NCBI GenBank assembly: GCA_022072055.1
Contig: JAJVIK010000007.1
Span: forward strand, 513,442 to 577,441
Length of the DNA: 64,000 bases
Direction of reading: 5' to 3'
Source of the DNA: a bacterium
GTDB lineage: Bacteria; Hinthialibacterota; Hinthialibacteria; OLB16
Shown in pieces: positions 2,505-58,033 of the stretch. The notes under the pieces are model-generated. The model searched no databases and was not told the origin of the DNA. It worked only from the letters and a program-made list of their open reading frames with translations. Both the position numbers and the translations under genes were made by a program. Each line of letters opens with the position of its first letter. Positions within the stretch are counted from its first letter, which is position 1.

Positions 2505-2717
2505 ATGGCCAGCATACTTGTTAGGACTCGCGTGGAATCGGACACGCTCAGAATCCCCGAGCTATCGTCATTCATCGGCAAGAATGTCGATGTTTATGTG
2601 ACCGAAGCTCGGGCTGAGGAAATCGATCCCGCATGGAGGAATTTTTTCGACAACGCGGCTGAGGATACGATCGACCTCAACGCCGTGATCGAACTTCGCC
2701 AGGCCAGCATGACATGA
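2505..2717 (+). CDS. Putative antitoxin (AbrB/SpoVT-like VapB candidate)
   Basis: 70-aa ORF starting 2 nt after sdhA stop, stop overlaps the downstream PIN gene start (ATGA); lower GC than flanks. Confidence 0.45.
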   Translation: MASILVRTRVESDTLRIPELSSFIGKNVDVYVTEARAEEIDPAWRNFFDNAAEDTIDLNAVIELRQASMT

Positions 2718-3109
2718 CCGTTCTCCTGGACACGAACGTTCTCGTGGACCTCTGGCGGCAACCGTTCGAGAGCGCGCTGGACCGCCTTCCCATGGGGAGA
2801 GCTGCAATTTGTGGCGTGACACGGGCTGAGCTCCTCCAAGGGGCTCGTTCCGCGACGGACAAGGAAACCATCAATCGACGGTTGCGAATGTTCATCCAGA
2901 TTCCGATCACGGAGGACTTGTGGGGTGAGCTCGGCGATATCTTGGCCTGTCTTCGTAGGCAAGGGATTTCCGTCCCATTTCCTGATGCCCTCATTTCCAC
3001 GGTGGCATTGCATGAAGGGATCGCGCTCTGGACCAACGATTCTCATTTCGGGTTGATTCAGCGGGCCTTTCCCAATTTGGATTTATACATCCCCACGAGG
3101 AGCGAATAG
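2714..3109 (+). CDS. vapC: PIN-domain ribonuclease toxin VapC
   Basis: MTVLLDTNVLVD N-terminus with acidic residues typical of PIN; 131 aa; translationally coupled to the upstream small ORF. Confidence 0.75.
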   Translation: MTVLLDTNVLVDLWRQPFESALDRLPMGRAAICGVTRAELLQGARSATDKETINRRLRMFIQIPITEDLWGELGDILACLRRQGISVPFPDALISTVALHEGIALWTNDSHFGLIQRAFPNLDLYIPTRSE

Positions 3110-3111
3110 CA

Positions 3112-3852
3112 ATGCCCCCTGTAACCTTCAACATCTGGCGCGGCGGCGCCGAAGGCGGAGAATTCAAGGAGTATCGGACCGAGGTCACCGAGGGCATGGT
3201 GGTCCTGGATGCCGTGCACCAGATTCAGGCCGAGTCCGCCAATGACCTCGCGGTGCGCTGGAACTGCAAGGCCGGAAAGTGCGGCTCCTGCTCCGCCGAG
3301 ATCAACGGCAAACCGCGCCTGATGTGCATGACCCGCATGAGCGACCTCCCGGTCAATCAGCCCGTGCGCATCGAACCGATGCAGGCCTTTCCCTCAATCA
3401 AGGACCTGGTCACGGATGTCTCCTGGAACTTCGAGGTCAAGAAACGCCTTAAGAGGTTCAAGCCGCGCAAGCCGGACGCGCCGGATGGGTCTTGGCGCTT
3501 CGCGCAGGCCGACACCGACCGGGTCCAGGAGTTCCGCAAGTGCATCGAGTGCTTTCTGTGCCAGGATGTCTGCCATGTGTTGCGCGACCACCACAAGCAC
3601 GAGGAGTTCATCGGGCCTCGCTTCTTCGTTTACTCCGCCGCGCTGGAGATGCACCCGCTGGATGAAGAGGATCGCCTGGAGGACCTCAAGCGCGCGAACG
3701 GCATCGGCTACTGCAACATCACCAAGTGTTGCACCAAGGTCTGCCCCGAGCACATCACCATCACCGACAACGCGATCATCCCGCTCAAGGAGCGCGTGGT
3801 GGACCGCTTCTATGATCCCGTGCGGATGCTGCTCCGGGTGATTGGGGGATAA
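3112..3852 (+). CDS. sdhB: Succinate dehydrogenase/fumarate reductase iron-sulfur subunit
   Basis: Cys clusters CKAGKCGSCS, CIECFLCQDVC, CTKVCPE for 2Fe-2S/4Fe-4S/3Fe-4S centres. Confidence 0.9.
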   Translation: MPPVTFNIWRGGAEGGEFKEYRTEVTEGMVVLDAVHQIQAESANDLAVRWNCKAGKCGSCSAEINGKPRLMCMTRMSDLPVNQPVRIEPMQAFPSIKDLVTDVSWNFEVKKRLKRFKPRKPDAPDGSWRFAQADTDRVQEFRKCIECFLCQDVCHVLRDHHKHEEFIGPRFFVYSAALEMHPLDEEDRLEDLKRANGIGYCNITKCCTKVCPEHITITDNAIIPLKERVVDRFYDPVRMLLRVIGG

Positions 3853-3866
3853 CGGGAAACCCGAGA

Positions 3867-4898
3867 CTATTGCGCCTTCTTGATCTTCGCAGTGGCGAAG
3901 ATCTTGCGGTGGAGGGTCACGAAGTTGGCGGCGTAGGATTTCGGGTTCACCACGATTCTCAGTTCCGGATCGGAGCTGAAGGTGGTTCCCTCGTCGCTGG
4001 TTCGCATCGAGCCTTCAATCAGCAGGAAGCGGTCATAGGGGTGTTGCGGAGACATCATCCGCTGGATGTAATCCCGCGCCGCGCTGCTGGACACCGGGAT
4101 GCTTTTGAACTGGGAGTCGCTCGCGGTGATGATCTTCTCCTGGAGCTTGGGCTTGCGCTCCTTGTATTCCTTGGAGGTGGGAAGCAGGGACTCAAAAATG
4201 CCCCCGCCCGGAAGCCCCAGGATGGCGTCCAACCCCACCTTGTCCTCTTCCCCCTTGCGCGGAGTGGCCACCAGCTCGTTCAAGGTGACGTCGAGAATCG
4301 GAATGGCCGGTCGCTCGGCGCGATCCCTGCCGCGCCCCATGTTGGGGTAGTGGCGCTCCAGCCGCGAGACCTGATAGTTGGCGAGGAAAACCTCAACTCC
4401 CAAGAATGGGTCATAAAGGTAAGCGAGATCATCCTGGGCGGTCTCCATGTACTTCTTGAATTCCGGGGTGACAATCCAGGCGTATTCGGGAACAAGCAGC
4501 TCCGCGAAGGGGATGGTGTCGATGGCCTTGGCGGCCTCGCCCGGTTGGCGACCAAGCGCGAGGATCAGGGCCTGGCGGGCCTTCTGATGCGCCCAATACC
4601 AGTAGTCGGCGTTCTCTCCGCGGTTCTCATTCATGAATTTCTTGTCGCCCTCCGGATCACGCTGGAGGATTTCGGCCTTGTTCTTGGCGATGGTCCGGAC
4701 CGACTTACGGGTCATGAGGGTCACAAAAGCGTCGTTTTCCTCCAGGATCGCGGCTTCCTGTTCGCTAAGCTCCTTGGGAACATCGGCTTGGCGGACCTTG
4801 GAAAGGGCGGCGCCCTCTTGGGGTGTCGCCATCAGGACACAGGCGAACGCGGCAAGGATCGTGGGAAAGAAGTGGGGGAGAAGTCGGTGCGCTTCCAT
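3867..4898 (-). CDS. Hypothetical secreted protein (N-terminal signal-like hydrophobic segment)
   Basis: 343-aa ORF, non-repetitive composition, hydrophobic N-terminus; no recognisable catalytic motif. Confidence 0.5.
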   Translation of the reverse strand: MEAHRLLPHFFPTILAAFACVLMATPQEGAALSKVRQADVPKELSEQEAAILEENDAFVTLMTRKSVRTIAKNKAEILQRDPEGDKKFMNENRGENADYWYWAHQKARQALILALGRQPGEAAKAIDTIPFAELLVPEYAWIVTPEFKKYMETAQDDLAYLYDPFLGVEVFLANYQVSRLERHYPNMGRGRDRAERPAIPILDVTLNELVATPRKGEEDKVGLDAILGLPGGGIFESLLPTSKEYKERKPKLQEKIITASDSQFKSIPVSSSAARDYIQRMMSPQHPYDRFLLIEGSMRTSDEGTTFSSDPELRIVVNPKSYAANFVTLHRKIFATAKIKKAQ

Positions 4899-4969
4899 CG
4901 GGGATCAGATTTCCTCCAGGCAGAGCTATGGTGCCACTCCCGAGCGTCGCTTGGCAAGGCGGTCAGCGT

Positions 4970-5335: not shown

Positions 5336-5449
5336 GGGGGTTCTCCTTCGCGGATTCGCGGGCGGATTGTCACCCGCGTTTCTCTCCCGGATACTACCAA
5401 TCCGAGTCGCGCTTGTCGCGTCCCCATTGCTTCATCAAAGGAAGCGTCC

Positions 5450-6124
5450 ATGCCTCGCCTTTTCTTCATTTCGATTGCCTTTGTGTGCCTGTGCGCGCTT
5501 TGCGGTTCGGGAAGGGCCGAGGCCCCCGACGGCGTCGAGTGGCCGGTGGTGTTCAAGGAGGATTTCTCCGCTCCCACCTCGGTGGAGCGTTGGGAATTCG
5601 CCGATCCTTCCGCCTGGAGGCTCGCGAGCGGGGAGGGTTTTCCGTTTCTCTCCACCTTCAAGGACAGCGCCCACAAGCCTCCGGTTCGCTCCCCCGAGAA
5701 CATTGCCTGGATCAAAGACCTCGAGGTGGGGAGTTTTGTGTTGGATGCCACCGCGCGGTCCACGGAGCGGGAGTATGGCCACCGGGATGTTTGCGTGCTA
5801 TTCGGAAGGCAGGACCCCGCTCACTTCTATTATGTCCATCTGGCCACCAAGGCCGATGAGCACGCGCACTCCATCTTTCTGGTGAATGGCGAGCCGCGCG
5901 TGTCCATCGCCCAAGCTCGGACGGATGGGGTTGCCTGGAACGAGAGCTGGCATCACATCCGGGTTGTGCGCAATGTTCAAGCGGGGGATATCGTGGTGTT
6001 TTTCGACAATATGGACACCCCGATCATGCGCGCGGTGGACACCCACTTCGCCAAGGGGCGCGTGGGCTTCGGCTCCTTCGACGACACGGTCGATCTGCGG
6101 GAGATCGTGATCCGTGGGGAGTAG
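5450..6124 (+). CDS. DUF1080 (3-keto-disaccharide hydrolase-like) secreted protein
   Basis: ATG at 5450 followed by signal peptide MPRLFFISIAFVCLCALCG; DUF1080-like C-terminal motif GRVGFGSFDDTVDLREIVIRG; long upstream extension in the ORF track rejected. Confidence 0.7.
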   Translation: MPRLFFISIAFVCLCALCGSGRAEAPDGVEWPVVFKEDFSAPTSVERWEFADPSAWRLASGEGFPFLSTFKDSAHKPPVRSPENIAWIKDLEVGSFVLDATARSTEREYGHRDVCVLFGRQDPAHFYYVHLATKADEHAHSIFLVNGEPRVSIAQARTDGVAWNESWHHIRVVRNVQAGDIVVFFDNMDTPIMRAVDTHFAKGRVGFGSFDDTVDLREIVIRGE

Positions 6125-6166
6125 GGCGCGTTTCGTTCAGCCTATTGCGCAAGCGCGAGGTGAGAC

Positions 6167-6961
6167 TTACAACTCCTCGAAGGTTTTCACGGTCACCTCG
6201 GCAATCTTCACTCGGTGAGTCCCGGCGCCAAGACCATGTGCGATGAGGATGAGTTCCAGACTGTTCATCTGCGTCCGCGTCCAAGCTCCCCCATACTCAC
6301 CGGCCCACTCGCCATACTCAAAAGTTAAAACCTGGGGACTTGTCAGTGGCGGAAAAGTCAGAGGGAGCGCAACGAAATAGGGTTCAGCGAAGGCCTGTCC
6401 CGCAATTCTCACGTTGACTTCGAGATCATCAATACTGCCATCGCGTTCAGCGACTAGTCGGACTTCGAGCTTCTTGATTCCCCAATCCTGATTTGGATTA
6501 TCGAAACCATAGATCTGAGGAACATCATTGTCCTCAGAACTCACACGCGCCTCAATATAGGTGCCAAGGCTATTGTCTCTCAGAAGGGCGTGGTCACTAA
6601 CATGCCATTCCTGTGTAACGCTGGCATTTGGACTGAGGGGATAGTTTGCGGCAGTCGTCGTAGAAATCGAATTCTGACTTTGATGGGTATTAAGATCACT
6701 CATCAGCTCCACGACTTTTATCCAATACTGGGTGTTCTCATTCAGTCCGGAAACAGTGCATGAGCCAGTCGTCTGACCTTGTACATACAGGGCATCAGCC
6801 CCTGGTTCCCATGGCCCGCTCGCGGAAGTTTGTGAGATGTAAACTGTCGCGCTTAGTGGGGAGATGCCCCCGGCTGGAGGTGTCCAATCCCACTGCACGG
6901 TCAGCGTGCCTGGCGTACGTTTCGTCACGGCCTCATTCGATAGCCATACACCCATTGTCAT
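6167..6961 (-). CDS. Hypothetical protein with fibronectin type III-like N-terminal region; lower-GC orphan gene
   Basis: 264-aa ORF; FN3-like pattern (TVQWDW...GLNENTQYWIKVV); visibly lower GC than the flanking atp genes. Confidence 0.5.
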   Translation of the reverse strand: MTMGVWLSNEAVTKRTPGTLTVQWDWTPPAGGISPLSATVYISQTSASGPWEPGADALYVQGQTTGSCTVSGLNENTQYWIKVVELMSDLNTHQSQNSISTTTAANYPLSPNASVTQEWHVSDHALLRDNSLGTYIEARVSSEDNDVPQIYGFDNPNQDWGIKKLEVRLVAERDGSIDDLEVNVRIAGQAFAEPYFVALPLTFPPLTSPQVLTFEYGEWAGEYGGAWTRTQMNSLELILIAHGLGAGTHRVKIAEVTVKTFEEL

Positions 6962-7084
6962 ACCCAGAGCTTCTCCTTCTCATTCCATAGCTGTGACGGA
7001 AAGTTCTTCCGTTGCCACGGAATTGTCAAGGGAAAAATTTGCCGTTACCCACTGCAATGAGGAAAGTCGGTGGAGCTGTCCGCC

Positions 7085-10124
<3,040 letters not shown>

Positions 10125-13324: not shown

Positions 13325-13723
13325 TCAGCGCCTTGCCCAGTTCTCCAGTCGCAGATCCGGGATCCTTCCGAAGCGCTTCACATTGTTTGTGACCAAGCAG
13401 TAATCGAGCATGAGGGCGCTTGCGGCGATGATCAAGTCAAAGTCGTCGAGAACCTGGCCCTTCCGCGAAAGGTCTGCTTTCAGTGACGCGTAGGTTTCCA
13501 TCACGCCTCGAGTTATCCCGATCACCGGGAAAACTTCGATGAGTTGGCGAACATTTGCCGTGTTTTGGCGAGGGTTTTCCGATTTCTCCGCCCCATGCAG
13601 GAGCTCTCCGTAGCTGATCATCGAGATCGCTTTCGGGAAAGGTTCTTTCTCTTTGAGGGTCGCGAGAACAGACCTATTCCCTCGCAGGATGAAGACGAGG
13701 ATGTCGGTATCAATCAAAAACAC
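13325..13723 (-). CDS. vapC: PIN-domain toxin VapC (probable GTG start)
   Basis: VFLIDTDILV PIN N-terminus; no in-frame ATG, GTG at 13723 overlaps the antitoxin stop. Confidence 0.7.
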   Translation of the reverse strand: MFLIDTDILVFILRGNRSVLATLKEKEPFPKAISMISYGELLHGAEKSENPRQNTANVRQLIEVFPVIGITRGVMETYASLKADLSRKGQVLDDFDLIIAASALMLDYCLVTNNVKRFGRIPDLRLENWARR

Positions 13724-14024
13724 GAAGCATTTTCTCCCGCCGGGATGAAAACCGCCGGGCTTTCCGGATCGAATCCGCAATCTCCTCGGCCGACCTTGAA
13801 TCCTTCCAGGTCCCGGCCAGCTTCAAGAGCTCTCGCGTGGCCTTCGCTGGGTCCTCCTCCGGTCGCGAGAGGCCCTCCTGGATGAGTGTGACCACCTCCT
13901 GGCTGATGGACCGGTTGTTCCTTTTCGCCCTTGCCCCCAGGGCGCGATACAAGTTGTCGTCCATTCCCTTGACTTGCAGATTCGCCACGATGGTCTCCCA
14001 TTCCAATCCTGACCCCTCAATCAT
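13710..14024 (-). CDS. vapB: Ribbon-helix-helix antitoxin (VapB/FitA-like)
   Basis: N-terminal beta-strand then helices (ANLQVKGMDDNLYRALGARAKRNNRSISQEV), RHH-like; overlaps the PIN gene. Confidence 0.6.
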   Translation of the reverse strand: MIEGSGLEWETIVANLQVKGMDDNLYRALGARAKRNNRSISQEVVTLIQEGLSRPEEDPAKATRELLKLAGTWKDSRSAEEIADSIRKARRFSSRREKMLRVFD

Positions 14025-17060: not shown

Positions 17061-17228
17061 GCGGAGTCCAACTCCGCGGTCCGGTTCCGCCCAGGAGTCC
17101 AACTCCTGGGCGAGCGGAGGGTTAGAGCATTTCTCACTCGGATGTCGTGTTGGAGGGGCGCGGTCCCTCGCGTCCGGACACGACAGAGCTACGGGGGCGT
17201 CCGGACACGACAGAGCGTGTCCCTCCTG
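17061..17228. repeat. Mosaic GC-rich palindromic repeat, copy B1 (two TCCAA-loop hairpins, TTAGAGC module, GGACACG hairpins)
   Basis: Fills the convergent gap between rhamnosidase and rhaT; homologous to segments at 40720-40772, 53925-54020 (inverted) and 60552-60637. Confidence 0.6.
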
Positions 17229-17229
17229 G

Positions 17230-25143: not shown

Positions 25144-25449
25144 TCAGAACCCGTTCCATGGCCTCAAGGGCTTTCGCGCCGAGCAGGTTCCCGGCACTCC
25201 ACAAATCACCGGGGCGGCCCCGCCCGCGCCGCGATATTCGAAATAAGCGTCACTCAGCTCGCGCGTAATTTCCTCGCCATTGGCAAGAGAAGCGGTTCGC
25301 TTTCGGTACGGTCGAATCCCCAGTCCCTCAAGCAAGTCCCTTGGCGCCACCGAGTACACCGCGCCTGAAGCGACCAGAAAGGCAACCCTCTTCCCCGGTT
25401 TTGTGCCATGCCTCTTCTTGATCAACACGTGCACTTTGATCAGTCCCAT
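25144..25449 (-). CDS. Retropepsin-like (clan AA aspartic protease fold) protein lacking the catalytic Asp (DTGA replaced by ASGA)
   Basis: 101 aa; pattern GKRVAFLVASGAVYSVAPRDLLEGLGI matches the bacterial retropepsin-like core except at the catalytic residue; starts 12 nt after lepB stop. Confidence 0.4.
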   Translation of the reverse strand: MGLIKVHVLIKKRHGTKPGKRVAFLVASGAVYSVAPRDLLEGLGIRPYRKRTASLANGEEITRELSDAYFEYRGAGGAAPVICGVPGTCSARKPLRPWNGF

Positions 25450-25460
25450 GATCAACTTCG

Positions 25461-40485: not shown

Positions 40486-40722
40486 AATTTCCGGCAAGAG
40501 GCCACGATCATACGGGAACTTGAGATTAGGAAAAACGAGATCGAGAAGCTGTGCACGAAGCATTCTGTCCGACGCCTGGAAGTATTTGGCTCCTCGGTGG
40601 AAGGCCGGTTTGACCCCGAGGCCAGTGACCTAGTAGTCTTGGATTCCCGCTTTCGCGGGAATGACGAATATCAGGGACTCCTTCAAGAGCTCGCGCGTCT
40701 TCTGCAGTCATCTTCGCCGTAG
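40486..40722 (+). pseudogene. Remnant of an MNT-type nucleotidyltransferase (HepT/MNT antitoxin family), no start codon, C-terminus replaced by repeats
   Basis: Open frame encoding IRKNEIEKLCTKHSVRRLEVFGSSVEGRFDPEASDLVVLD, then the repeat-encoded DSRFRGNDE; absent from the ORF track. Confidence 0.55.
40641..40669. repeat. Short palindromic element, family A copy 1 (GGATTCCCGCTTTCGCGGGAATGACGAAT)
   Basis: Perfect 7-bp-stem hairpin; identical 29-mer at 59506-59534. Confidence 0.6.
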
Positions 40723-40772
40723 AGCATCTCTCAACCCGAATGTAGCGTCGGAGGGACGCGCTCCGTCGCGTC
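40720..40772. repeat. Mosaic GC-rich palindromic repeat, copy B2 (TAGAGC module plus GGAGGGACGCG hairpin)
   Basis: Aligns with 17122-17175 and with the reverse complement of 53960-54020. Confidence 0.5.
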
Positions 40773-40849
40773 ATGTTGCCCCGGAAGACCCACCACGATT
40801 GGGCGTGGCCCTCCGAGGATTTGCAGGATATCATTAACCGCTCAAGTGA

Positions 40850-46000: not shown

Positions 46001-47342
46001 CTCCGGAATTCTGTTCCACGATGAGGCGCGCGAAACCCTGGTCCAGGGGAATTTCATCGGGACCGACATCACCGGGCTTCTGCCGGTTCCGAATGGTCTT
46101 GATGGGGTCTTCATCGAAAACGCCCCAAGCAATCTGGTCGGAGGCGCCACTCCCGGCGCGGGAAACCTGATCTCCGGGAACGCCCGCTATGGCGTCTATC
46201 TCCTCGATAGCAAGGCGGTCGGGAACCGTGTCCAGGGGAATCGCATCGGCACGGATCTCACCGGTTCCTCGGATATCGGCAACGCCTCGGCGGGGATGTA
46301 CATCAAAGCCGCGACCGGCAATGCTCTAGGCGGAACCGGAGCGGGCGAGGGGAATCAAATCGCCTTTAACCTCGCCGGGGTGACCATCCTTTCCGGCTCG
46401 ATGAACCCCATCCTCTCCAACTCGATCTTCTCCAATGATGGCCTTGGAATCGATCTTGGCGAGGACGGAGTCACCGCCAACGACGAGATCGACTCCGACA
46501 CCGGCGCGAACGATTTCCAAAACTATCCGATCCTCACCGACGCTCGAATCGCCGAGGCCCAACCGGACAACATCCTGTCGATCACAGGAACCCTGCACAG
46601 CGCCACAGCCACGGAGTTCCTGCTTCAGTTCTTCGCAAGCGAGATCTGCGATGCTTCCGGTTTCGGTGAAGGAAGGGTCTTCATCGGTTCGGCCACTGTT
46701 GTGACCAACGCCTCCGGAGACGTCACATTCACATTCGATTTTCCCATCCAACTTACTGGAGCTCTCCAGCTCACCTCAACCGCCACGGACCCCATCGGCA
46801 ACAGCTCGGAGTTCTCCCAGTGCCTGGAGGTGGTCGGCATTCCGACCCCCACTCCGACCGCGAGCGCCACGCTCACCCCCACCTCGACCCCATCGCCGAG
46901 CGCCTCGCCCACGGAGACCGCGACAGACACGCCAAGCGCCTCTCCGACTCAATCGTCCTCTCCCTCGGCGACCTTCACCGGGCAACCGACCGTCACCGCG
47001 AGCGCAACCCCCTCGGCGACCGCCACGGGACAGCCAACATCCACGCCGACCGCGACCTCCTCATCCGCTCCGAGCGCAACTCCCACTCCCACAACCACGG
47101 GTAGCCTACCGGCGACGTCAACTCCCACTCCCACCACGACCGGCAGCCAAGCGGCCACCCCCACGGCCACTTCCACCTGCGCGCCGGACTACAACCTGGA
47201 TGGGCTGGGGGCGATCGACGCGCGGGACCTTCTGCAGCTCCTCGCCGCGATCCGCTCAGGCGACCCCCAAGCGGACTTCAATTGCGATGGCGCGGTGGAT
47301 GGGGATGATCTGCTCGAGTTCAGTGGGAGGTGGAAGGAATAG
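43083..47342 (+). CDS. Giant secreted right-handed parallel beta-helix repeat protein with Pro/Thr-rich linker and C-terminal dockerin-like domain
   Basis: Signal peptide; tens of PbH1-like repeats (NxIxGNxIGxxxxG); dockerin-like Ca-binding loops DYNLDGLGAIDARDL and DFNCDGAVDGDDL. Confidence 0.8.
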   Translation: MRIRPFSLLAFPPLLFCLLVPGARAATFTVTNTNNSGAGSLRQAILEANSVLPPEAVFIHFNIIGMFVFPIINPSSPLPNILRPVTIDGTTQPTSNNRVAIQGINAGANADGLHFGPNSDGSVVRGLVINSWSDDGIELEQSDGTVVARNWIGVDFALGMVDLGNGAAGVHVNNSSHTSIGGLTAADRNVISGNNGNGVWIINGSTGTHVIGNYIGIGADGATAVRNTNTGVLIAACSDNYVGGPTVGERNIISGNGNGVTVLGANARNNVIQGNWIGTSANGSADLGNVVDGVRIESAQNTLIGGDASFEGNPPGNVISGNDMAGVHILGASRTFIQGNAIGKDGSVVVAIPNGGDGVLVEAETLGAWPRHTVIGGRGGLGNDISHNQLSGIAIEDGTGVLIQGNSLSGNGQYGVRLRSDDNVVGGPSPEDGNVIAFNGRSGVYVNASSGNLIGGATEESGTFIFGNQEHGVLISGLTGENNRIEGCNIGRTVGGGASGNLRNGVRISMSSNNIVGGTEPHKANVIVANQEGGVAILSELTHGNRVQGNGIGVSLEIVNKGTYSNSVGVLIDGAKNNLIGGTEPGARNLISGNDGDGILLRNSASNNRIQGNLIGLAGDGVFGVGNGAAGIEILNSPNNLIGGTMPGARNVIADNSDGIFILGGALSANNVIRGNYIGTDVSGALARGNHVNGVFAQAAEFVVGGTEPGAGNLISANRLRGVFLSSFDSTHCRVQGNRIGTDASGMAALGNGGDGALLESTIQCAIGGTAPGAGNLISGNGGNGVWLVTGASGNVVAGNFIGTNITGDTSLGNGQSAVLIEDAQLNRIGGNQPGAANILSGTNQYGVHINHPLAKENRIEGNFIGTDITGSLPLGNRFGGVLIVDASDNYIGGTTPGAGNLISGNGGSGIRLFKTMNTPGRTFIQGNRIGTDVTGVLPLGNMSRGVDLSATVGVEIGGITEGARNLISGNGFSGILFHDEARETLVQGNFIGTDITGLLPVPNGLDGVFIENAPSNLVGGATPGAGNLISGNARYGVYLLDSKAVGNRVQGNRIGTDLTGSSDIGNASAGMYIKAATGNALGGTGAGEGNQIAFNLAGVTILSGSMNPILSNSIFSNDGLGIDLGEDGVTANDEIDSDTGANDFQNYPILTDARIAEAQPDNILSITGTLHSATATEFLLQFFASEICDASGFGEGRVFIGSATVVTNASGDVTFTFDFPIQLTGALQLTSTATDPIGNSSEFSQCLEVVGIPTPTPTASATLTPTSTPSPSASPTETATDTPSASPTQSSSPSATFTGQPTVTASATPSATATGQPTSTPTATSSSAPSATPTPTTTGSLPATSTPTPTTTGSQAATPTATSTCAPDYNLDGLGAIDARDLLQLLAAIRSGDPQADFNCDGAVDGDDLLEFSGRWKE
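46839..47177 (+). repeat. Low-complexity Pro/Thr/Ser-rich linker-coding repeat inside the beta-helix gene
   Basis: About 113 codons of T/P/S/A with a reiterated TPTPTTTGS unit. Confidence 0.6.
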
Positions 47343-47373: not shown

Positions 47374-47628
47374 TCAATAGTGGTACCTGCAGGCAATAAT
47401 GGTCAGTGTTTCACCCTCCACTTCATAAACGAGGCGGTGTTCACGGTCGATTCGCCTTGACCAACAATTCCTCAGCTGCCAACGAAGAGGCTCAGGTTTT
47501 CCGATTCCCTGGAATGGGTTTCGCTGGGTGTCTTTGATGAGCTCATTGACTCGCTTGAGCATCGCTTTGTCGGTCCGTTGCCAGTGGAGATAATCCTCCC
47601 AAGCCGCCTCCGTGAAGAGGATTCTCAA
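47374..47628 (-). CDS. yoeB: YoeB toxin (Txe/YoeB family mRNA interferase)
   Basis: Near-consensus YoeB sequence (WEDYLHWQRTDK...WSRRIDREHRLVYEVEGETLTIIACRYHY). Confidence 0.9.
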   Translation of the reverse strand: MRILFTEAAWEDYLHWQRTDKAMLKRVNELIKDTQRNPFQGIGKPEPLRWQLRNCWSRRIDREHRLVYEVEGETLTIIACRYHY

Positions 47629-47631
47629 ACT

Positions 47632-47889
47632 CTACTCCTCCTCCGCAAGTTGCCGCTCCTCAGCCTTTCCCGAGCGAGCATCGGCCAACGACTTCATCAA
47701 CCTCTCCTCATTCCTTGGACACCGCAACAGGTACGCCGTCTCCTCCATTGACTCGTAATCCGAAAGAGAAAGGAGTACGGCTGGCGGATGGCCTGAACGC
47801 GAAATGATCACCGGCTCGCAGTCCGCCTCGATACGATCCAGGACGGTCGTGAGGTTCTTCTCGAACTCCGCAAGAGATACAGTTTCCAT
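47632..47889 (-). CDS. yefM: YefM antitoxin (Phd/YefM family)
   Basis: 85-aa ORF 3 nt upstream of yoeB with Phd/YefM-like N-terminus (PVIISRSGHPPAVLLSLSDYESMEET). Confidence 0.85.
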   Translation of the reverse strand: METVSLAEFEKNLTTVLDRIEADCEPVIISRSGHPPAVLLSLSDYESMEETAYLLRCPRNEERLMKSLADARSGKAEERQLAEEE

Positions 47890-48175: not shown

Positions 48176-48628
48176 ATGCCCGCCCTCACCATCCGCCCTT
48201 ACCAAGACCCCGAAGAAGCCTCGGTGGTCGCGCTCTGGGGCGAGCTGCTTGACGATGGCTCCCCGCACAACGATCCCCTCACCTCCCTTCGCCGTAAACT
48301 GGCGCTGAGTCGGGAATTACTTTTCGTCGCGCTTCTGGATGACCTTGTGGTTGGAACCGCGATGGGCCGATACGATGGGCGCCGGGGATGGATCCATTCG
48401 GTCGCGGTCAAGCCGGAATTCCAGCGCCACGGGATCGGGACCGCCCTCATCCGGAGGGTCGAGGAGGATCTCAAGTCCTTGGGTTGCCCCAAAGTCAACC
48501 TTCAAATCCGCGCCTCGAACAGCGGAGTCGCGGGTTTTTACCAACGCCTTGGTTACACGGTGGAGGAACGGATCAGCATGGGAAAACGCCTCCATGACCG
48601 AGCAGTTCCCCCTCCCTCCACGCCTTGA
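48176..48628 (+). CDS. GNAT family N-acetyltransferase
   Basis: Acetyl-CoA binding motif region (RRGWIHSVAVKPEFQRHGIGTALI). Confidence 0.75.
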   Translation: MPALTIRPYQDPEEASVVALWGELLDDGSPHNDPLTSLRRKLALSRELLFVALLDDLVVGTAMGRYDGRRGWIHSVAVKPEFQRHGIGTALIRRVEEDLKSLGCPKVNLQIRASNSGVAGFYQRLGYTVEERISMGKRLHDRAVPPPSTP

Positions 48629-51839: not shown

Positions 51840-51907
51840 CCCTGTACACTCGCGTTCGCGTCCTTGGGCGCATCCATTCAGTCATAAGGAGGGAGTTCAC
51901 ACTCCCC

Positions 51908-53899: not shown

Positions 53900-53924
53900 A
53901 GCGGGTAACGTCAGCGTGTGGCAC

Positions 53925-54020
53925 CTGGAGGGACACGCTCCGTCGTGTCCGGGCGCGAGGGGCCAAGGGACGCGACGGAGCGCGTCCCTCCAACGCAACA
54001 TCCGAGTGAGATAGGCTCTA
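53925..54020. repeat. Mosaic GC-rich palindromic repeat, copy B3 (inverted orientation; long imperfect hairpin)
   Basis: Reverse complement aligns with 17122-17225; about 24-bp stem pairing GGAGGGACACGCTCCGTCGTGTCC with GGGACGCGACGGAGCGCGTCCCTCC. Confidence 0.6.
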
Positions 54021-54030
54021 AGTTGGGGTG

Positions 54031-55311
54031 TCAGTTCCCGACCGGATCGAGCAGAAACGCGCGGTATTTCCCGTTAATCGTTCCCTCTCCCACAATCTGG
54101 CCCTTGTTGTTGATGTCCTTCGCGATCAAAAGGACCCAGCCTTTCCCATCCACAAGCTGGTTGGTCAGATCATAGAGCGCTCCATCTTTCCACAGGACCG
54201 CGGAGCTTTTCGCGCCGATCCGGTCACTGATCTGGTTCCAGAGTTGACGGACCCAGCGGAACTGCTTGAATCTGTTGTAGAACTTTTGCGCGAGGGGAAT
54301 GTCGATTCCGTCCCCGACAATTTCACCTCGATCATTGAGGGCGAGCGGCCGACAACTCTCGAAAGACTTCATCGCAAGGAAAGCATGGGTTCCGTTGTCC
54401 CAGAGGAAAGGTTCGTATTCGTCAAAATCTCCACCGGTGGGGAAAGCCCCCGCCACTTGACCGCGCTGGTTTAAGGCCGCCGCCGAGCTGCCCTTCATGC
54501 CGCTTAGATGAATGTCCCGCATCCCTTTGTCCGGAGTCCAAACAAAGGCGTGCTGCTCGCCGCTTGCGGTGGAGCCGTATCCGGCGATCCAGCCGGAGGA
54601 GTTTACCGCGGCAGGGTGGACAACGGGGCCTCCGAGATCACCCAAGTCCTCAAAACCACATTCCGAGGTCCATCGGAAGAGGCGTCGATAGGGCCGAGGG
54701 GGCGCCCTTTTCGGACCCTCCATGTCCTGCGCGGCCACCACGAAGGCTCCTCCCGATCCGAAAAGAACGTCCTCGATGGAGGTGAATCCCGTGATGGAAA
54801 GAACAACCTCCTCGGCTGAGGCAGACCGGATGAGGTGAATTCTCTTTGGCTGTCTCAGCGGCGCGCCCGCGCCATACACTCCGAAGGCGCCGCCATAGAC
54901 CGAAGGACCACCCGGCGTGAACTCCTCCACAGTTTCCACAACGAGGATTCTCCCGAGGGGGTCGATTTCGACCGCTGTTCCCGTGGTCCCCTGGGAGAGG
55001 CCCAGGTCTTTCATTCCCGATTCTCTTGTCCACAGAAAGGGATGGGTGACGAAGGGTGGAACAAACTGTTGCATGTTGCCGGGAGACGAATCTTTGGGGC
55101 GCGGAACCGCGGCGCTCCCGACCACCTCGCCTCGATCATTGATGGCCACGGCACGCACTTGCGCGTGCTTGGAGAGAACCCCCAGATCGGTGATGCGATA
55201 ACGAGGTCCCGAGGGCCAGGCCAACAACCACCACAAGAAAAGCGCCCCGAATGCAAAGACCGCCGCCTGGAGGAACGTCTTACGCTGGGTTATTGATTTC
55301 CCCTCAGCCAT
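54031..55311 (-). CDS. HAF-repeat family extracellular/anchored protein, paralog 1
   Basis: N-terminal hydrophobic anchor, PSGPRYRITDLG, HAF-like repeats (INDRGEVVG, QHAFVWTP), C-terminal GKYRAFLLDPV. Confidence 0.7.
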   Translation of the reverse strand: MAEGKSITQRKTFLQAAVFAFGALFLWWLLAWPSGPRYRITDLGVLSKHAQVRAVAINDRGEVVGSAAVPRPKDSSPGNMQQFVPPFVTHPFLWTRESGMKDLGLSQGTTGTAVEIDPLGRILVVETVEEFTPGGPSVYGGAFGVYGAGAPLRQPKRIHLIRSASAEEVVLSITGFTSIEDVLFGSGGAFVVAAQDMEGPKRAPPRPYRRLFRWTSECGFEDLGDLGGPVVHPAAVNSSGWIAGYGSTASGEQHAFVWTPDKGMRDIHLSGMKGSSAAALNQRGQVAGAFPTGGDFDEYEPFLWDNGTHAFLAMKSFESCRPLALNDRGEIVGDGIDIPLAQKFYNRFKQFRWVRQLWNQISDRIGAKSSAVLWKDGALYDLTNQLVDGKGWVLLIAKDINNKGQIVGEGTINGKYRAFLLDPVGN

Positions 55312-55347
55312 GATCCAAGGCCCTGTATTTCGGGATAAACGGTTCCT

Positions 55348-55740
55348 CTATATCACTTGAACACACGGTCCTGAATCGAGCCGCGACGCTCTCCTGGCGA
55401 ACCCTCGGTCGAAGGTGGCGAACGCCTCGGAACACGAGCTGCTTCCCCAGTGAAGCGCGTCGGCAAAATCAATCCCCCGTTCATAGGCCTCCAGCGCGGA
55501 CACGACCGCGATGGGGTCTTCCAGCACAACCTGAGAAAGCCCGCAGAGCCTTCTGAACGATTCGAGGATCACCGTTCTCGGCAGCTCGTAAGTGTATCGG
55601 AGCACCCATTCGCACTCGAGGAGGACTGTCTTCGGGATGTGGATGGAATTGGCTTCAAAGAGCTCAGTCGCTCGGCGCGCCTGCGCGGGATCATCCCGTG
55701 TCAGGAGGCGAACCAGAATGTTGGTATCGACCGAGATCAT
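55348..55740 (-). CDS. vapC: PIN-domain toxin VapC
   Basis: MISVDTNILVRLL start; 4-nt overlap with the upstream antitoxin gene. Confidence 0.75.
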   Translation of the reverse strand: MISVDTNILVRLLTRDDPAQARRATELFEANSIHIPKTVLLECEWVLRYTYELPRTVILESFRRLCGLSQVVLEDPIAVVSALEAYERGIDFADALHWGSSSCSEAFATFDRGFARRASRLDSGPCVQVI

Positions 55741-55988
55741 CTTTGTCTCGACACACCCTTGCGGATCGCGCCCTCCATTTCGGCGAGCGACTTGCGCGCT
55801 CCGGTGTAGCCCGTGCAGCCGATCACTTCGCGGAGCGTGGTGGCGGGGAAAGGTTGGGTGGGGCGAAGCAGGACCCCCCCGGAGTGCTCCTCCACCAGGA
55901 ATTCGACCCCCGGGCCCCATCCGTGACTTACCCGGATGGCCTTGGGGATGATGATCTGCCCCTTGCTGGAGAGTCGCGTGGTTTCCAT
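55737..55988 (-). CDS. vapB: AbrB/MazE/SpoVT-type antitoxin VapB
   Basis: SpoVT/AbrB swapped-hairpin signature (SSKGQIIIPKAIRVSHG). Confidence 0.75.
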   Translation of the reverse strand: METTRLSSKGQIIIPKAIRVSHGWGPGVEFLVEEHSGGVLLRPTQPFPATTLREVIGCTGYTGARKSLAEMEGAIRKGVSRQR

Positions 55989-56062
55989 GTTCCCCCTCCT
56001 TGGTAAGATTACGGTAAGATGATCCTACCGGCGGCGGACAGTTCGGTCAATGCGAAGAGAAG

Positions 56063-57316
56063 TCACTCCACCGGGTCAAGCAGGAACGAGCGCGTGTTTC
56101 CCTGGAAGGTCCCCTCGCCCACAATCTGTCCCTTGTTGTTGATGTGCCTGGCGGACCAAAGGACCCAGTCGTCCCCGTCCACAAGCTGGTTGTTCAGATC
56201 ATATAACTCCCCATCCTTCCACAGGAGCGCGGAAGCCCTCTCCTCGAGCCAGTTCTCGCCCCAGTCTTCGAGCCAAGGGACAGCCCAGGCGGCCCAAGGT
56301 CGCTGCATGAGCGCTGTCAAAATCCTCTGGGTGGCGGGACGGTACGATCCGCCCCCGACTATCTCTCCAGGATCGTTGATATCTTGGGCCTCGCAACGTT
56401 CGAAATGCTCCACGGGGAGCGGGGTGTAGGTTTCCTTCTCCCAGAGGAAGGGTTTCGACCCACCCCACCCGCCGCGTGACCAGGAAAATCCCACGACCTG
56501 ACCTCGGTTGTTCAACCCCTGTGCGTGGCTGATCCGCTCGTCGGTCGGATGGATGTCCCGCATCCCTTGAACCGGAGTCCAGATAAACGCGTGCTGTTCC
56601 CTGCTCGCCGTGAGGGCATATCCGGCAATCCAACCGTTTTCGTTCGCCGATTCTGGAATGACTTGGTTGCCCCCCAAGTTCCCGAGACTTTCATATCCCT
56701 TCTCCGCGCTCCACCGAAGAAGGTCTTCAGACTGGGTCCCCACCGTGGTCAGGCCGCTCGCCGGCATCAGCAGGGTCTCATTCGGTCCGAGGGCGACCTG
56801 ACCCAAGGAGATGGCGCGAGTTTCGGTCAGGATGATGTGCGCGCCGGTGGCCGAATGGATCACATAGGTGCGCTTTATGGGTTGTGGTCGGGGAGTCCCA
56901 TAACCTCCCGGCCCACCGTAAGGTTGCACGGCGGATGGGGAGAGGTCTTGATGGTGCTCAACGACCAGAATCCGGCCGCGTTCGTCAATGTCCCGGGCGG
57001 AGCCGGAATTGCCCTCCAAGAGGCCGAGGTCCCTTATCCCCGACTCGCGGGTCCAGAGAAAGGGGTGTGTGACATAACTCCGGCGTCGTCCCCCCTCGGA
57101 AGGGGTGGCGGATTCAACCGGAAGGGGAACCGCCATGCCGCCAACCACCTCGCCACGCTCATTGAGGTCGGCCACTTGATCCGCCACCCTGCTCGCCCCG
57201 ATTTGGAGGTCGGTGATGCGATAGCGGGGACCGGAGGGCGGAGATGAAAGGAGCAGGAGGGCAAGCGCGCCGAGGGCGACAATGGCTGAAAGGAGGAACG
57301 CGATTCGCTTCGGCAT
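56063..57316 (-). CDS. HAF-repeat family extracellular/anchored protein, paralog 2
   Basis: Same architecture as 54031-55311 (PSGPRYRITDL, HPFLWTRESGIRDLG, QHAFIWTP, C-terminal RSFLLDPVE). Confidence 0.7.
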   Translation of the reverse strand: MPKRIAFLLSAIVALGALALLLLSSPPSGPRYRITDLQIGASRVADQVADLNERGEVVGGMAVPLPVESATPSEGGRRRSYVTHPFLWTRESGIRDLGLLEGNSGSARDIDERGRILVVEHHQDLSPSAVQPYGGPGGYGTPRPQPIKRTYVIHSATGAHIILTETRAISLGQVALGPNETLLMPASGLTTVGTQSEDLLRWSAEKGYESLGNLGGNQVIPESANENGWIAGYALTASREQHAFIWTPVQGMRDIHPTDERISHAQGLNNRGQVVGFSWSRGGWGGSKPFLWEKETYTPLPVEHFERCEAQDINDPGEIVGGGSYRPATQRILTALMQRPWAAWAVPWLEDWGENWLEERASALLWKDGELYDLNNQLVDGDDWVLWSARHINNKGQIVGEGTFQGNTRSFLLDPVE

Positions 57317-57356
57317 TCGAGCAGCTCACGCTCCAGCAAAACGAATGAAGGCGATG

Positions 57357-57545
57357 TTAGTCCTTGGTCGCCATGGGGGCGCCGGGGTGAACAATCCGCT
57401 CGGGATGTTCACGCTCCGCCTCGCGGAGTTTCTCGCAGAATGTGTGCAGATCAGACCCGGCCTCCCTGAAAAGGTCCGCCCCGGCCCGGCGAGTCTCCTC
57501 CACAATAGGGTCATCCCACGTGTAAACCTCATCGTTGGGCATCAT
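57357..57545 (-). CDS. Small acidic hypothetical ORF downstream of the disrupted PIN gene
   Basis: About 62 aa (MMPNDEVYTWDDPIVEETRRAGADLFREAGSDLHTFCEKLREAEREHPERIV); start uncertain. Confidence 0.25.
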   Translation of the reverse strand: MMPNDEVYTWDDPIVEETRRAGADLFREAGSDLHTFCEKLREAEREHPERIVHPGAPMATKD

Positions 57546-58033
57546 CAAGCAGTTCCTCCGGTGTACAGATCGTCGGTGTTGAGAATCCTTCTCTTTGGTT
57601 AATTTGCCGCACTCGACGGCGAATATGACCGTTGGCGATATGCCTGCAGTTCCATGTTGCCAGAAACATCGTGCCCCAAACAGAGGCAGGGGCAATGTGA
57701 AGGGCATCACGCGCGGCATCCGTGGGCAGGTCAGATTTCCTCGAGATAGACACTGGCCAGCCGCTCCACTTCGGCGGACACATGGAGTTCTGAAAACCCG
57801 CGCAGCGAGGCCAGTCGCTTTCTCGCCGCATCCTGGTCACCGCGTGACGCCTCGGCCAGGACTACCTCGGATATGAAGACCTCGTACCCCGGAAGCGCCT
57901 CCTTCCACCACCGACGAGTGATCTCTTGGTGGGCCAGAACAAGGATGTCCCTCGACGAGCGGGCTTCGAGATAGCCGACAACTGAAGTTTCGAGGTACAG
58001 GCGTGGCTTATCAGCCATTATCGATGGTTCCAC
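57529..58033 (-). pseudogene. PIN-like nuclease gene split by an apparent frameshift near 57731-57745
   Basis: N-terminal part (RLYLETSVV...YEVFISEVV) ends at stop 57731; C-terminal part (DALHIAPA...FLATWNCRHIANG) continues in another frame. Confidence 0.5.

What the first reader, a model, noticed from the sequence alone, without database searches (positions are those of the whole stretch)
2505..58033. High density of toxin-antitoxin modules in one window
Five to six type II modules or remnants fall within 64 kb: vapBC-like (2505-3109), RHH-PIN (13325-14024), an MNT remnant (40486-40722), yefM-yoeB (47374-47889), AbrB-PIN vapBC (55348-55988) and a frameshifted PIN (57529-58033). Several sit in lower-GC pockets, consistent with repeated acquisition and decay.
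Basis: partly seen in the sequence, partly recalled or inferred. Interest (0 to 1): 0.4.

Follow-up and report, generated by a model that had tools for sequence, protein, structure and literature searches.

The report
Dense cluster of toxin-antitoxin cassettes
A 64-kb stretch of an uncultured bacterium's chromosome carries four intact and two decayed toxin-antitoxin gene pairs, several of them present or absent in a nearly identical relative, which is well-known behaviour for these selfish modules and not a new kind of system.

Summary
Profile searches confirm all six loci at the stated coordinates.

**Intact pairs (four)**
- A 70-aa partner with a PIN toxin, 2505-3109.
- RHH with VapC, 13325-13988.
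- YefM with YoeB, 47374-47889.
- AbrB with PIN, 55348-55988.

**Decayed loci (two)**
- A frameshifted PIN-like toxin, 57529-58018.
- A weak, start-less MNT fragment, 40486-40722.

**Composition.** Four of the six lie in the lowest 1-3% of GC among same-sized stretches of the window.

**Acquisition and decay.** Comparison with a 96-99% identical genome (GCA_013360775.1) supports this directly:
- Modules 2, 4 and 5 are shared and collinear.
- The relative lacks module 6.
- The relative has an extra vapBC that the window lacks.
- Between sdhA and sdhB the relative carries a TM2-domain gene where the window has vapBC. It sits inside a ~1.3-kb divergent recombination tract with ~100% identical flanks.

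**Precedent.** TA-rich genomes, TA "islands" and TA modules inserted into housekeeping operons are all already described (Makarova 2009; Ramage 2009).

**Verdict.** These are real but ordinary new members of known kinds. The most interesting detail is the vapBC cassette wedged into the sdhCAB operon with 2-bp gaps.

The parts
2505..2717 (+). M1 putative antitoxin (70 aa), from a small family not covered by Pfam
   Evidence: Overlaps the PIN gene by 4 nt. It is found with a homologous PIN gene in three unrelated contexts at 59%, 59% and 25% identity. 26 cluster representatives were found in 1.84 billion proteins. None matches Pfam. The fold was not resolved.
2714..3109 (+). M1 VapC-type PIN toxin (131 aa), lying between sdhA and sdhB
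   Evidence: PF01850 scores 43.1 bits. NF047959 E 1.9e-13. PDB VapC21 5SV2 E 1e-5. D6, E39, D91 and D109 are present, read from the sequence.
2250..3560 (.). Divergent recombination tract covering the sdhA 3' end, the vapBC cargo and the sdhB 5' end
   Evidence: Against relative L097 the flanks are about 100% identical. The tract is 77-87% identical or unalignable. In the relative it carries an 87-aa TM2-domain gene instead of vapBC.
13325..13723 (-). M2 VapC toxin (132 aa, GTG start), of the tRNA(fMet)-endonuclease type
   Evidence: NF047863 scores 115 bits. Full-length alignment to Shigella VapC 3TND at E 5e-15. The position of the fourth acidic residue is Arg (NNVKRF).
13710..13988 (-). M2 ribbon-helix-helix antitoxin (92 aa, GTG start)
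   Evidence: PF22513 FitA-like_RHH scores 29.3 bits against a cutoff of 27. It overlaps the toxin start by 14 nt. The relative's copy is annotated 'antitoxin'.
40486..40722 (+). M3 eroded MNT-like nucleotidyltransferase fragment (pseudogene)
   Evidence: NTP_transf_2 scores 20.8 bits against a cutoff of 21. 1WOT E 0.048. There is no start codon, the D-x-D motif reads D-L-V, and the C-terminus is truncated.
40640..40666 (.). REP-like palindrome inside the MNT fragment
   Evidence: TGGATTCCCGCTTTCGCGGGAATGACG. Further copies lie at 59515-59541 and, inverted, at 59584-59610.
47374..47628 (-). M4 YoeB toxin (84 aa, TTG start)
   Evidence: PF06769 scores 134.7 bits. TIGR02116 scores 122 bits.
47632..47889 (-). 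M4 YefM antitoxin (85 aa)
   Evidence: PF02604 scores 84 bits. It lies 3 nt upstream of yoeB.
55348..55740 (-). M5 PIN toxin (130 aa)
   Evidence: PF01850 scores 40.7 bits. ATGA overlap with the antitoxin gene. D5, E42, D91 and D110 are present, read from the sequence.
55737..55988 (-). M5 AbrB/MazE-type antitoxin (83 aa)
   Evidence: PF04014 scores 29 bits. TIGR01439 scores 36.8 bits.
56022..56050 (-). Promoter-like site upstream of M5, followed by the direct repeat ATCTTACC-GTA-ATCTTACC
   Evidence: TTGACC-17-TAGGAT. This is a consensus match only, and the number found is at chance level for the region.
57529..58018 (-). M6 PIN-like (VapC family) toxin gene, broken by a 1-nt frameshift near 57735-57745
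   Evidence: The N-terminal part is 57731-58018 and the C-terminal part, in another frame, is 57529-57735. The repaired reading matches 1895 intact homologues. The family model (pLDDT 93.7) hits VapC structures. The frameshift is identical in L082.
57357..57545 (-). M6 conserved 62-aa downstream partner (putative antitoxin), intact
   Evidence: It overlaps the toxin's 3' end. Homologous small genes follow the toxin gene in L083, L091, L092 and L094. It matches no family.
54031..55311 (-). HAF-repeat paralogue flanking M5
   Evidence: TIGR02913 scores 81.8 bits.
56063..57316 (-). HAF-repeat paralogue between M5 and M6
   Evidence: TIGR02913 scores 76.9 bits.
58060..58440 (-). Short HAF-repeat paralogue next to M6, shorter by about 780 bp than the relative's copy
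   Evidence: TIGR02913 scores 29.9 bits. The relative's copy is 387 aa.

Best explanation
The window holds six independent type II toxin-antitoxin cassettes of different families, scattered among housekeeping genes of an uncultured bacterium. NCBI labels the source genome only 'bacterium'. Its near-identical relative is labelled Candidatus Omnitrophota.

Each intact cassette is a two-gene operon with overlapping or nearly touching reading frames. It encodes a small nuclease toxin (PIN/VapC or YoeB) and a small partner protein that presumably binds and neutralises it. Where a DNA-binding domain is recognisable (RHH, AbrB, YefM), the partner presumably also represses the operon.

The cassettes behave as selfish, horizontally moving modules:
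- They have lower GC and GC3 than the host genes.
- They are gained, lost or swapped between strains that are otherwise 96-100% identical.
- They decay toxin-first once they are no longer maintained.

At least some of the exchange happens by homologous recombination through conserved flanking genes. These are the sdhA and sdhB ends and the conserved ends of HAF-repeat paralogues. No integrase or transposase was recognised in the window.

Shown here: family assignments, gene arrangement, composition, presence/absence polymorphism, the recombination tract and the frameshift.

Inferred: toxicity, neutralisation, autoregulation and co-transcription of M1 with sdhCAB.
For: **Family assignments.**

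**Operon geometry.**
- M1 and M5 have 4-nt overlaps.
- M2 has a 14-nt overlap.
- M4 has a 3-nt gap.
- In M6 the partner's start overlaps the toxin's 3' end.

**Cassette conservation.**
- M1's unannotated partner travels with its PIN gene in three other contexts.
- M6's partner follows its PIN-like gene in four other contexts.

**Composition.** GC of M1-M4 is 0.54-0.565 against 0.623 for the window (1-3 percentile). TA genes have GC3 of about 0.49-0.80, mostly 0.60-0.74, against 0.79 +/- 0.04 for 22 large genes.

**Comparison with GCA_013360775.1.**
- M2 and M4 are collinear at 97%, and M5 is shared.
- M6 is absent from the relative, and the break points lie in conserved HAF gene ends.
- A 79-aa + VapC cassette is present only in the relative, in an otherwise roughly 20-bp spacer.
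- The sdhA proteins are identical over residues 1-539. Then comes a divergent tract of about 1.3 kb carrying vapBC in the window and a TM2 gene in the relative.

**No sign of a single mobile element.** There are no tRNA genes and no Rfam hits, and none of the ORFs I scanned in the window matched an integrase or transposase family.

**Precedent.** TA islands and a TA module inserted in a lysine-biosynthesis operon of one Thermus strain but not another (PMC2701414). 88 TA loci in M. tuberculosis, many of them in islands (PMC2781298).
Against: - No activity was tested.
- M1's and M6's partners have no recognisable DNA-binding or antitoxin domain. The AF2 monomer model of M1's partner matched nothing.
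- VapC-2 lacks the fourth conserved acidic residue, in both strains, so it may be attenuated.
- M5 and M6 are not compositionally distinct from their surroundings.
- The direction of each gain or loss cannot be polarised with only two genomes.
- The MNT assignment rests on two sub-threshold hits.
- The genome-wide TA density of this MAG is unknown, so 'dense' is judged only against published genomes.
Confidence: 0.85

Rival explanations
1. The modules came in together as one genomic island or mobile element (a single 'TA island').
For: M5 and M6 are only 2 kb apart and sit in a slightly lower-GC stretch of HAF paralogues. TA islands are documented.
Against: - The six loci are spread over 55 kb with spacings of 2-27 kb.
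- Core genes lie between them, including sdhCAB, the ATP synthase genes, fmt and gcvH.
- The modules belong to different families.
- There is no tRNA gene in the window, and I recognised no integrase or transposase.
- The relative shares some modules and not others, one locus at a time.
Confidence: 0.04
2. The modules, above all vapBC inside sdhCAB, are domesticated regulators of host physiology and not selfish passengers. One example would be a PIN RNase tuning sdh mRNA or translation in step with respiration.
For: - M1 has 2-bp gaps on both sides.
- No promoter-like or terminator-like site separates it from sdhA or sdhB.
- The vapC 3' end supplies a GAGGAG Shine-Dalgarno sequence 7 nt before the sdhB start codon, so co-transcription and coupling are likely.
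- M2, M4 and M5 are retained in both strains.
Against: - The near-identical relative has a TM2-domain gene in this slot, not vapBC.
- 72 of 78 other genomes have less than about 210 bp between sdhA and sdhB.
- The same cassette type sits in unrelated contexts elsewhere.
- M1's GC is in the lowest 1.5% of the window.
Confidence: 0.08
3. The pattern is an assembly or binning artefact of a metagenome-assembled genome, with chimeric joins bringing in foreign low-GC pieces and a false frameshift.
For: The source is a MAG. The relative's contigs break near repeats.
Against: - Independent per-run Logan assemblies reproduce the sdhA-vapB-vapC-sdhB joins (L001).
- They also reproduce the M6 frameshift with its neighbours at 100% identity (L082).
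- M2, M4 and M5 are collinear in a separately assembled relative.
Confidence: 0.02
4. Some of the pairs are not toxin-antitoxin systems. They could be solo PIN RNases with an unrelated small neighbour (M1, M6), and the 'MNT remnant' could be a chance match.
For: The M1 and M6 partners match no known family. The MNT hits are below threshold. Solo toxin homologues are common (PMC2701414).
Against: - Both partners are conserved next to their PIN genes across unrelated contexts, with overlapping frames.
- NCBI annotates M6 homologues as VapC-family TA toxins.
- Two independent libraries point to the same MNT family.
Confidence: 0.1

Closest known systems
VapBC type II toxin-antitoxin modules (PIN toxin with an RHH or AbrB antitoxin), e.g. 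Shigella/Salmonella VapBC and M. tuberculosis VapBC
   Same: - M1, M2 and M5 are antitoxin-first two-gene cassettes with overlapping frames and a PIN toxin of about 130 aa.
- M2 aligns over its full length to the tRNA(fMet)-specific VapC of Shigella.
- M2 and M5 have the classic RHH and AbrB antitoxins.
   Different: - M1's antitoxin belongs to a small family not covered by Pfam.
- M2's toxin has Arg at the position of the fourth acidic residue.
- M1 sits inside the sdhCAB operon with no recognisable promoter of its own.
YefM-YoeB (Phd/YefM antitoxin with a YoeB ribosome-dependent mRNA interferase)
   Same: - Both genes match end to end at high score (134.7 and 84 bits).
- The order and spacing are as expected.
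- The E46, R65, H83 and Y84 equivalents are present (my own reading against E. coli YoeB, recalled from memory).
   Different: Nothing notable. The toxin gene uses a TTG start.
Toxin-first PIN-like modules annotated 'VapC family toxin' with a small downstream partner
   Same: - M6 has the family's 160-aa PIN-fold toxin.
- All 20 family-invariant residues are present (compared by eye).
- The conserved downstream small gene is present.
   Different: - The toxin gene is frameshifted here.
- The gene order is the reverse of classic VapBC.
- The partner's function is untested anywhere that I could find.
MNT-HEPN modules
   Same: The fragment carries the N-terminal helix and the G-S...D part of a minimal nucleotidyltransferase.
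   Different: - It has no start codon and its C-terminus is missing.
- The second catalytic Asp is lost.
- It is interrupted by a REP-like palindrome.
- No HEPN partner is recognisable downstream.
TA-rich genomes and 'TAS islands' (Makarova et al. 2009, PMC2701414; Ramage et al. 2009, PMC2781298)
   Same: - Several unrelated TA families lie close together.
- There are insertion/deletion differences between close relatives.
- One module is inside a housekeeping operon, as with MNT-HEPN in the lysine operon of T. thermophilus HB8.
   Different: - The modules here are spaced 2-27 kb apart among core genes, not packed into one island.
- The local density (six per 64 kb) exceeds the genome averages of the published TA-rich genomes by about five-fold.

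Membership tests
VapBC (M1, 2505-3109) | Toxin has a PIN domain with the conserved acidic residues | tested here: met
   PF01850 scores 43.1 bits against a cutoff of 23.6. D6, E39, D91 and D109 were read from the sequence.
VapBC (M1, 2505-3109) | Small upstream gene in the same operon, conserved as a pair | tested here: met
   4-nt overlap. The same 70-aa + PIN pair occurs in L087, L088 and L089.
VapBC (M1, 2505-3109) | Antitoxin with a recognisable DNA-binding fold (RHH, AbrB, HTH or Phd) | tested here: inconclusive
   No Pfam, NCBIfam or PDB hit. hhalign against AbrB gave E 0.22. The AF2 monomer model has pLDDT 78 and pTM 0.37 and finds no Foldseek match.
VapBC (M2, 13325-13988) | PIN toxin homologous to characterised VapC, with an RHH antitoxin upstream | tested here: met
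   3TND E 5e-15 over residues 2-130. PF22513 scores 29.3 bits against a cutoff of 27.
VapBC (M2, 13325-13988) | All four active-site acidic residues (D7, E42, D98, E119 in Shigella VapC; numbering from memory) | tested here: not met
   Three are present. The E119 position is Arg (NNVKRF against NNTREF) in the window and in the relative.
YefM-YoeB (M4) | YoeB toxin and Phd/YefM antitoxin above curated cutoffs, antitoxin first | tested here: met
   PF06769 scores 134.7 (cutoff 27). TIGR02116 scores 122.1 (cutoff 51.8). PF02604 scores 84 (cutoff 29.8). The gap between the genes is 3 nt.
AbrB-PIN VapBC (M5) | AbrB/MazE-type antitoxin overlapping a PIN toxin | tested here: met
   PF04014 scores 29 (cutoff 24.7). 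TIGR01439 scores 36.8 (cutoff 28.3). PF01850 scores 40.7. ATGA overlap.
MNT-HEPN (M3) | Nucleotidyltransferase domain above threshold with an intact G-S...D-x-D motif | tested here: not met
   20.8 bits against a cutoff of 21. The motif reads GSS...SDLV, so the second Asp is missing. There is no start codon.
MNT-HEPN (M3) | Adjacent HEPN partner gene | tested here: not met
   The 128 bp downstream (40723-40850) are largely taken up by an intergenic repeat copy at 40734-40814. None of the three forward-frame translations contains a recognisable HEPN ORF.
PIN-like toxin with downstream partner (M6) | PIN fold of the toxin family | tested here: met
   The AF2 model of homologue P0002 with 50 sequences has pLDDT 93.7. 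The top 32 Foldseek hits are all VapC or other small PIN-domain proteins (6A7V E 7e-6, TM 0.68).
PIN-like toxin with downstream partner (M6) | Intact toxin reading frame | tested here: not met
   The reading frame stops at 57731-57733 and continues in another frame. The same is seen in L082.
PIN-like toxin with downstream partner (M6) | Conserved small downstream gene | tested here: met
   Homologous genes of 55-65 aa occur in L083, L091, L092 and L094, 27-53% identical.
All modules | Toxin inhibits growth and the partner neutralises it | not testable with these tools
   This needs expression and rescue experiments.
TAS island (Makarova 2009 sense) | Significant excess of closely spaced TA pairs relative to the same genome's overall TA distribution | not testable with these tools
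Only published genomes could be used as a yardstick.

The most novel reading that the evidence does not exclude
The junction between sdhA and sdhB, and the spacers between HAF-repeat paralogues, may act as recurrent 'cargo slots'. Small selfish genes would be exchanged there between strains by homologous recombination through the conserved flanking coding sequence, without any dedicated mobility enzyme.

Cargo seen at the sdhA-sdhB junction:
- vapBC in the window.
- A TM2-domain gene in the near-identical relative.
- GxxExxY genes and an IS110 transposase in other phyla.

The vapBC cassette in the sdh slot would be transcribed and translated as part of the respiratory operon. That would tie the toxin-antitoxin balance to succinate dehydrogenase expression.
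Probability: 0.2. Interest if true: 0.5.

Novelty: new member of a known kind. Interest (0 to 1): 0.25.

Why it matters
For TA biology in general this adds little. High TA loads, local clustering, toxin-first decay and strain-level gain and loss are textbook.

It has modest value in three ways:
- **Turnover.** It is a clean natural example of TA cassette turnover between genomes that are about 100% identical in the flanks. It includes a sharply bounded recombination tract of about 1.3 kb that swaps the cargo inside a core respiratory operon.
- **Unannotated partner families.** One is the 70-aa M1 family, with 26 cluster representatives. The other is the 55-65-aa partner of a PIN-like toxin family for which one search returned 1895 homologues. 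Both are candidates for new antitoxin families.
- **Annotation.** Most of these genes are 'hypothetical protein' in the deposited record.

Tried and rejected
- **Source organism.** I tried to place it through sdhB relatives. The 80 best loci are 72-79% identical and spread over many phyla, so this was not informative. Cluster look-ups later gave the source MAG and a near-identical 'Candidatus Omnitrophota' MAG.
- **Metagenome scan for M6 relatives.** It returned only one locus, so contexts were gathered by exact-protein look-ups instead.
- **Fold of the M1 antitoxin.** No Pfam, NCBIfam or PDB sequence hit. hhalign against the AbrB antitoxin of M5 was not significant. The AF2 monomer model matched nothing. 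The fold is left open.
- **PADLOC.** No TA protein matches a catalogued defence system.
- **GNAT gene at 48176-48628, next to yefM-yoeB.** I considered it as a GNAT-type toxin and rejected that. It is YpeA-like (PRK03624, 156.6 bits) and has no RHH/DUF1778 partner.
- **Other gaps in a crude gene map.** I checked them for missed TA genes and found none. The only other small relic seen is a weak retropepsin-like ORF at 25144-25455.
- **Rfam and tRNA scans.** Nothing found, so there is no tRNA-linked island and no known RNA antitoxin.
- **Promoter scans.** Only one consensus-like site lies upstream of a module (M5), and the count is at chance level.
- **Genome-wide TA density of the MAG.** This could not be obtained with the tools on hand.

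Full report
**Observation**

I listed ORFs at each claimed locus and scanned them against Pfam and NCBIfam.

| Module | Coordinates | Content | Main evidence |
|---|---|---|---|
| M1 | 2505-3109 | 70-aa ORF overlapping a 131-aa PIN protein by 4 nt | PF01850 43.1 bits |
| M2 | 13325-13988 | VapC (13325-13723) + FitA-like RHH (13710-13988) | NF047863 115 bits; PF01850 36.4 bits; 3TND E 5e-15, full length; RHH 29.3 bits |
| M3 | 40486-40722 | Nucleotidyltransferase fragment | 20.8 bits (cutoff 21); 1WOT E 0.048 |
| M4 | 47374-47889 | YoeB + YefM | 134.7 and 84 bits |
| M5 | 55348-55988 | AbrB/MazE antitoxin + PIN toxin, ATGA overlap | 29 and 40.7 bits |
| M6 | 57357-58018 | PIN-like gene split by a frameshift, plus a 62-aa partner | see below |

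I read the GTG starts of both M2 genes from the sequence. The M3 fragment has no start codon, its D-x-D motif is degenerate, and its C-terminus is truncated. It carries a 27-nt REP-like palindrome that recurs at 59515 and 59584.

**Module 6 in detail**

I joined the two frames of M6 into a 163-aa reading.
- It matches 1895 proteins of about 157-166 aa at up to 64% identity. Many of them carry PF01850 or the NCBI name 'VapC family toxin'.
- An AlphaFold model of an intact homologue, built with 50 sequences, has pLDDT 93.7. Its top 32 Foldseek hits in the PDB are all VapC or other small PIN-domain proteins.
- The frameshift is identical in an independent single-run assembly (L082), so it is not an artefact of one assembly.
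- All 20 family-invariant residues are still present in the window's two halves (compared by eye). That points to a recent break.
Homologous genes of 55-65 aa follow the toxin in four unrelated contexts. M6 is therefore a toxin-first two-gene cassette whose toxin is broken and whose partner is intact.

**Module 1 in detail**

The 70-aa partner matches nothing in Pfam, NCBIfam, PADLOC or the PDB. It nevertheless recurs, 4-nt overlap included, with a homologous PIN gene in three other contexts at 59%, 59% and 25% identity. An exhaustive search found 26 cluster representatives, nearly all 61-102 aa, and none has a Pfam hit. The fold stayed unresolved.

**Is it more than chance?**

- The individual assignments are far beyond chance, with E-values from 1e-9 to 1e-40 and paired geometry on top.
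- The six loci occupy 5.2% of the window.
- Published TA-rich genomes give an expectation of 1.1-1.4 modules per 64 kb. The yardsticks were 88 loci in M. tuberculosis (PMC2781298) and 48 and 65 pairs in two genomes of Table 5 of PMC2701414.
- That gives P(>=6) of about 0.001-0.003 and P(>=4) of about 0.03-0.05.
- These figures ignore the selection of the window for this very feature, and the MAG's own genome-wide density could not be obtained.
- A look through the remaining gaps of a crude gene map found no further TA genes.

**Composition**

M1-M4 have GC of 0.54-0.565 against 0.623 for the window, which puts them in the 1.0-3.2 percentile of same-length stretches. TA genes have GC3 mostly between 0.60 and 0.74, against 0.79 +/- 0.04 for 22 large genes. 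M5 and M6 are not distinct from their surroundings.

**Source and a close relative**

Exact-sequence look-ups place the window on a 646,555-bp contig of an NCBI MAG labelled only 'bacterium' (locus tags GHCLOJNM_017xx). There most of these genes are 'hypothetical protein'. A second MAG, GCA_013360775.1 ('Candidatus Omnitrophota bacterium'), is 96-99% identical over the four contigs I could fetch, which together cover about 20 kb of the window.

| Locus | State in the relative |
|---|---|
| M2, M4 | Present, collinear at 97% |
| M5 | Present |
| M6 | Absent. About 100 bp stand in place of the window's roughly 830 bp. The break points lie in the conserved ends of the flanking HAF-repeat genes (...ILDPVE-stop and GPRYRITDL). 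|
| Extra vapBC | Present only in the relative: 79 aa + a 134-aa VapC (NF047863 129 bits). It lies between the 593-aa membrane-protein gene and the next HAF gene, where the window has about 20 bp. |
| M1 slot | An 87-aa TM2-domain gene lies between sdhA and sdhB in place of vapBC. |

The sdh locus shows the sharpest pattern. The two sdhA proteins are identical over residues 1-539 and then differ at 30 of the last 69 positions. The sdhB proteins differ at 35 of the first 135 positions and are identical after that. At the nucleotide level the flanks are about 100% identical. A tract of about 1.3 kb (roughly 2250-3560) is 77-87% identical or unalignable. That is the signature of a homologous-recombination tract carrying a different cargo.

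**Context of M1**

- The start of the window encodes the end of a conserved sdhC-like subunit, so the operon reads sdhC-sdhA-[vapB-vapC]-sdhB.
- M1 is separated from sdhA and from sdhB by 2 bp each.
- No promoter-like or terminator-like site lies between them. The vapC 3' end provides a GAGGAG 7 nt before the sdhB start codon.
- Co-transcription is therefore likely, but it is inferred, not shown.
- In 78 other genomes with both genes, 72 have less than about 210 bp between sdhA and sdhB.
- Four of the six wider gaps were inspected. They hold GxxExxY-type genes (L017, L048), an IS110-type transposase (L052) and a 429-aa membrane protein (L021).

**How it most likely works**

Each intact cassette encodes a nuclease toxin and a partner that binds it. 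The toxins are PIN/VapC RNases, with M2 closest to the initiator-tRNA-cleaving type, and the ribosome-dependent mRNA interferase YoeB. The RHH, AbrB and YefM partners presumably also repress their own operons. All of this follows from established knowledge of these families and was not tested here.

The cassettes spread horizontally, are swapped by recombination through conserved flanks, and decay toxin-first. M6 has a broken toxin and an intact partner. At M3 no toxin gene is recognisable and the antitoxin gene is eroded. VapC-2 carries Arg at the fourth acidic position in both strains, so it may be attenuated.

**Comparison with what is known**

All of this has precedent. Makarova et al. 2009 (PMC2701414) describe three of the features seen here:
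- significant TA 'islands' made of unrelated families;
- recent insertions and deletions between close relatives;
- an MNT-HEPN module inside the lysine operon of one Thermus strain.

Ramage et al. 2009 (PMC2781298) report 88 TA loci in M. tuberculosis, with 37% of the homology-identified systems in genomic islands.

**Verdict**

- Novelty: new members of known kinds.
- Interest is low to moderate.
- The two unannotated partner families and the sdh 'cargo slot' are the parts most worth a follow-up.

Noticed in passing
L017 3545-3937; L048 3485-3964; L052 about 2600-3900; L021 2614-3903; L097 2830-3093: The sdhA-sdhB junction is normally tight, but in several distant genomes it holds small foreign genes. 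These are GxxExxY-type proteins (two Acidobacteriota MAGs), an IS110-type transposase, a 429-aa membrane protein, and a TM2-domain gene in the window's close relative. It may be a recurrent insertion slot.
   Followed up: partly
window 59515-59541 and 59584-59610 (inside the 593-aa gene 58460-60241); also 40640-40666: A REP-like palindrome (TGGATTCCCGCTTTCGCGGGAATGACG) occurs twice, in inverted orientation, in frame inside a PMT_2-type membrane-protein gene. There it encodes '...PRFRGDDG...SFPRKRESR...'. The relative's protein carries the same insert.
   Followed up: partly
window 17122-17229, 40734-40814, 53927-54021, 60609-60633: A second family of intergenic repeats (core GGGACGCGACGGAGCGCGTCCCTCC). 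One copy lies directly after the MNT remnant and one at the edge of the HAF/TA array.
   Followed up: no
window 54031-58440: Three HAF-repeat paralogues alternate with TA cassettes. Their conserved 5' and 3' ends are the break points of the differences from the relative. The third paralogue is about 780 bp shorter than the relative's 387-aa copy.
   Followed up: partly
window 25144-25455 (-): A 103-aa ORF with a weak retropepsin-like aspartyl-protease match (PF13650, 22 bits against a cutoff of 24.3). The usual D-T/S-G motif reads A-S-G, so it may be another small decayed selfish gene.
   Followed up: no
window 6001-7000; ORF 6167-6961 (-): This is the lowest-GC stretch of the window (0.54). 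It holds a 264-aa orphan protein with only a weak fibronectin type III match, so it may be foreign DNA unrelated to TA modules.
   Followed up: no
window 13325-13723; L098 1487-1879: VapC-2 has Arg where Shigella and Rickettsia VapC have the fourth active-site Glu (NNVKRF against NNTREF / NNIKEF). This holds in both strains, so the toxin may be attenuated.
   Followed up: partly
P0165 (2030 aa): A 2030-aa protein contains 11 stretches similar to residues 12-37 of the M1 antitoxin (the SDTL-IPEL-IGK-V motif). The antitoxin's N-terminal unit may therefore also exist as a repeat in a giant protein.
   Followed up: no
window 43083-47342 (+): A 1419-aa secreted beta-helix-type protein with 8-9 tandem units of 186-195 nt and a Thr/Pro/Ser-rich tail lies directly upstream of yoeB.
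   Followed up: no
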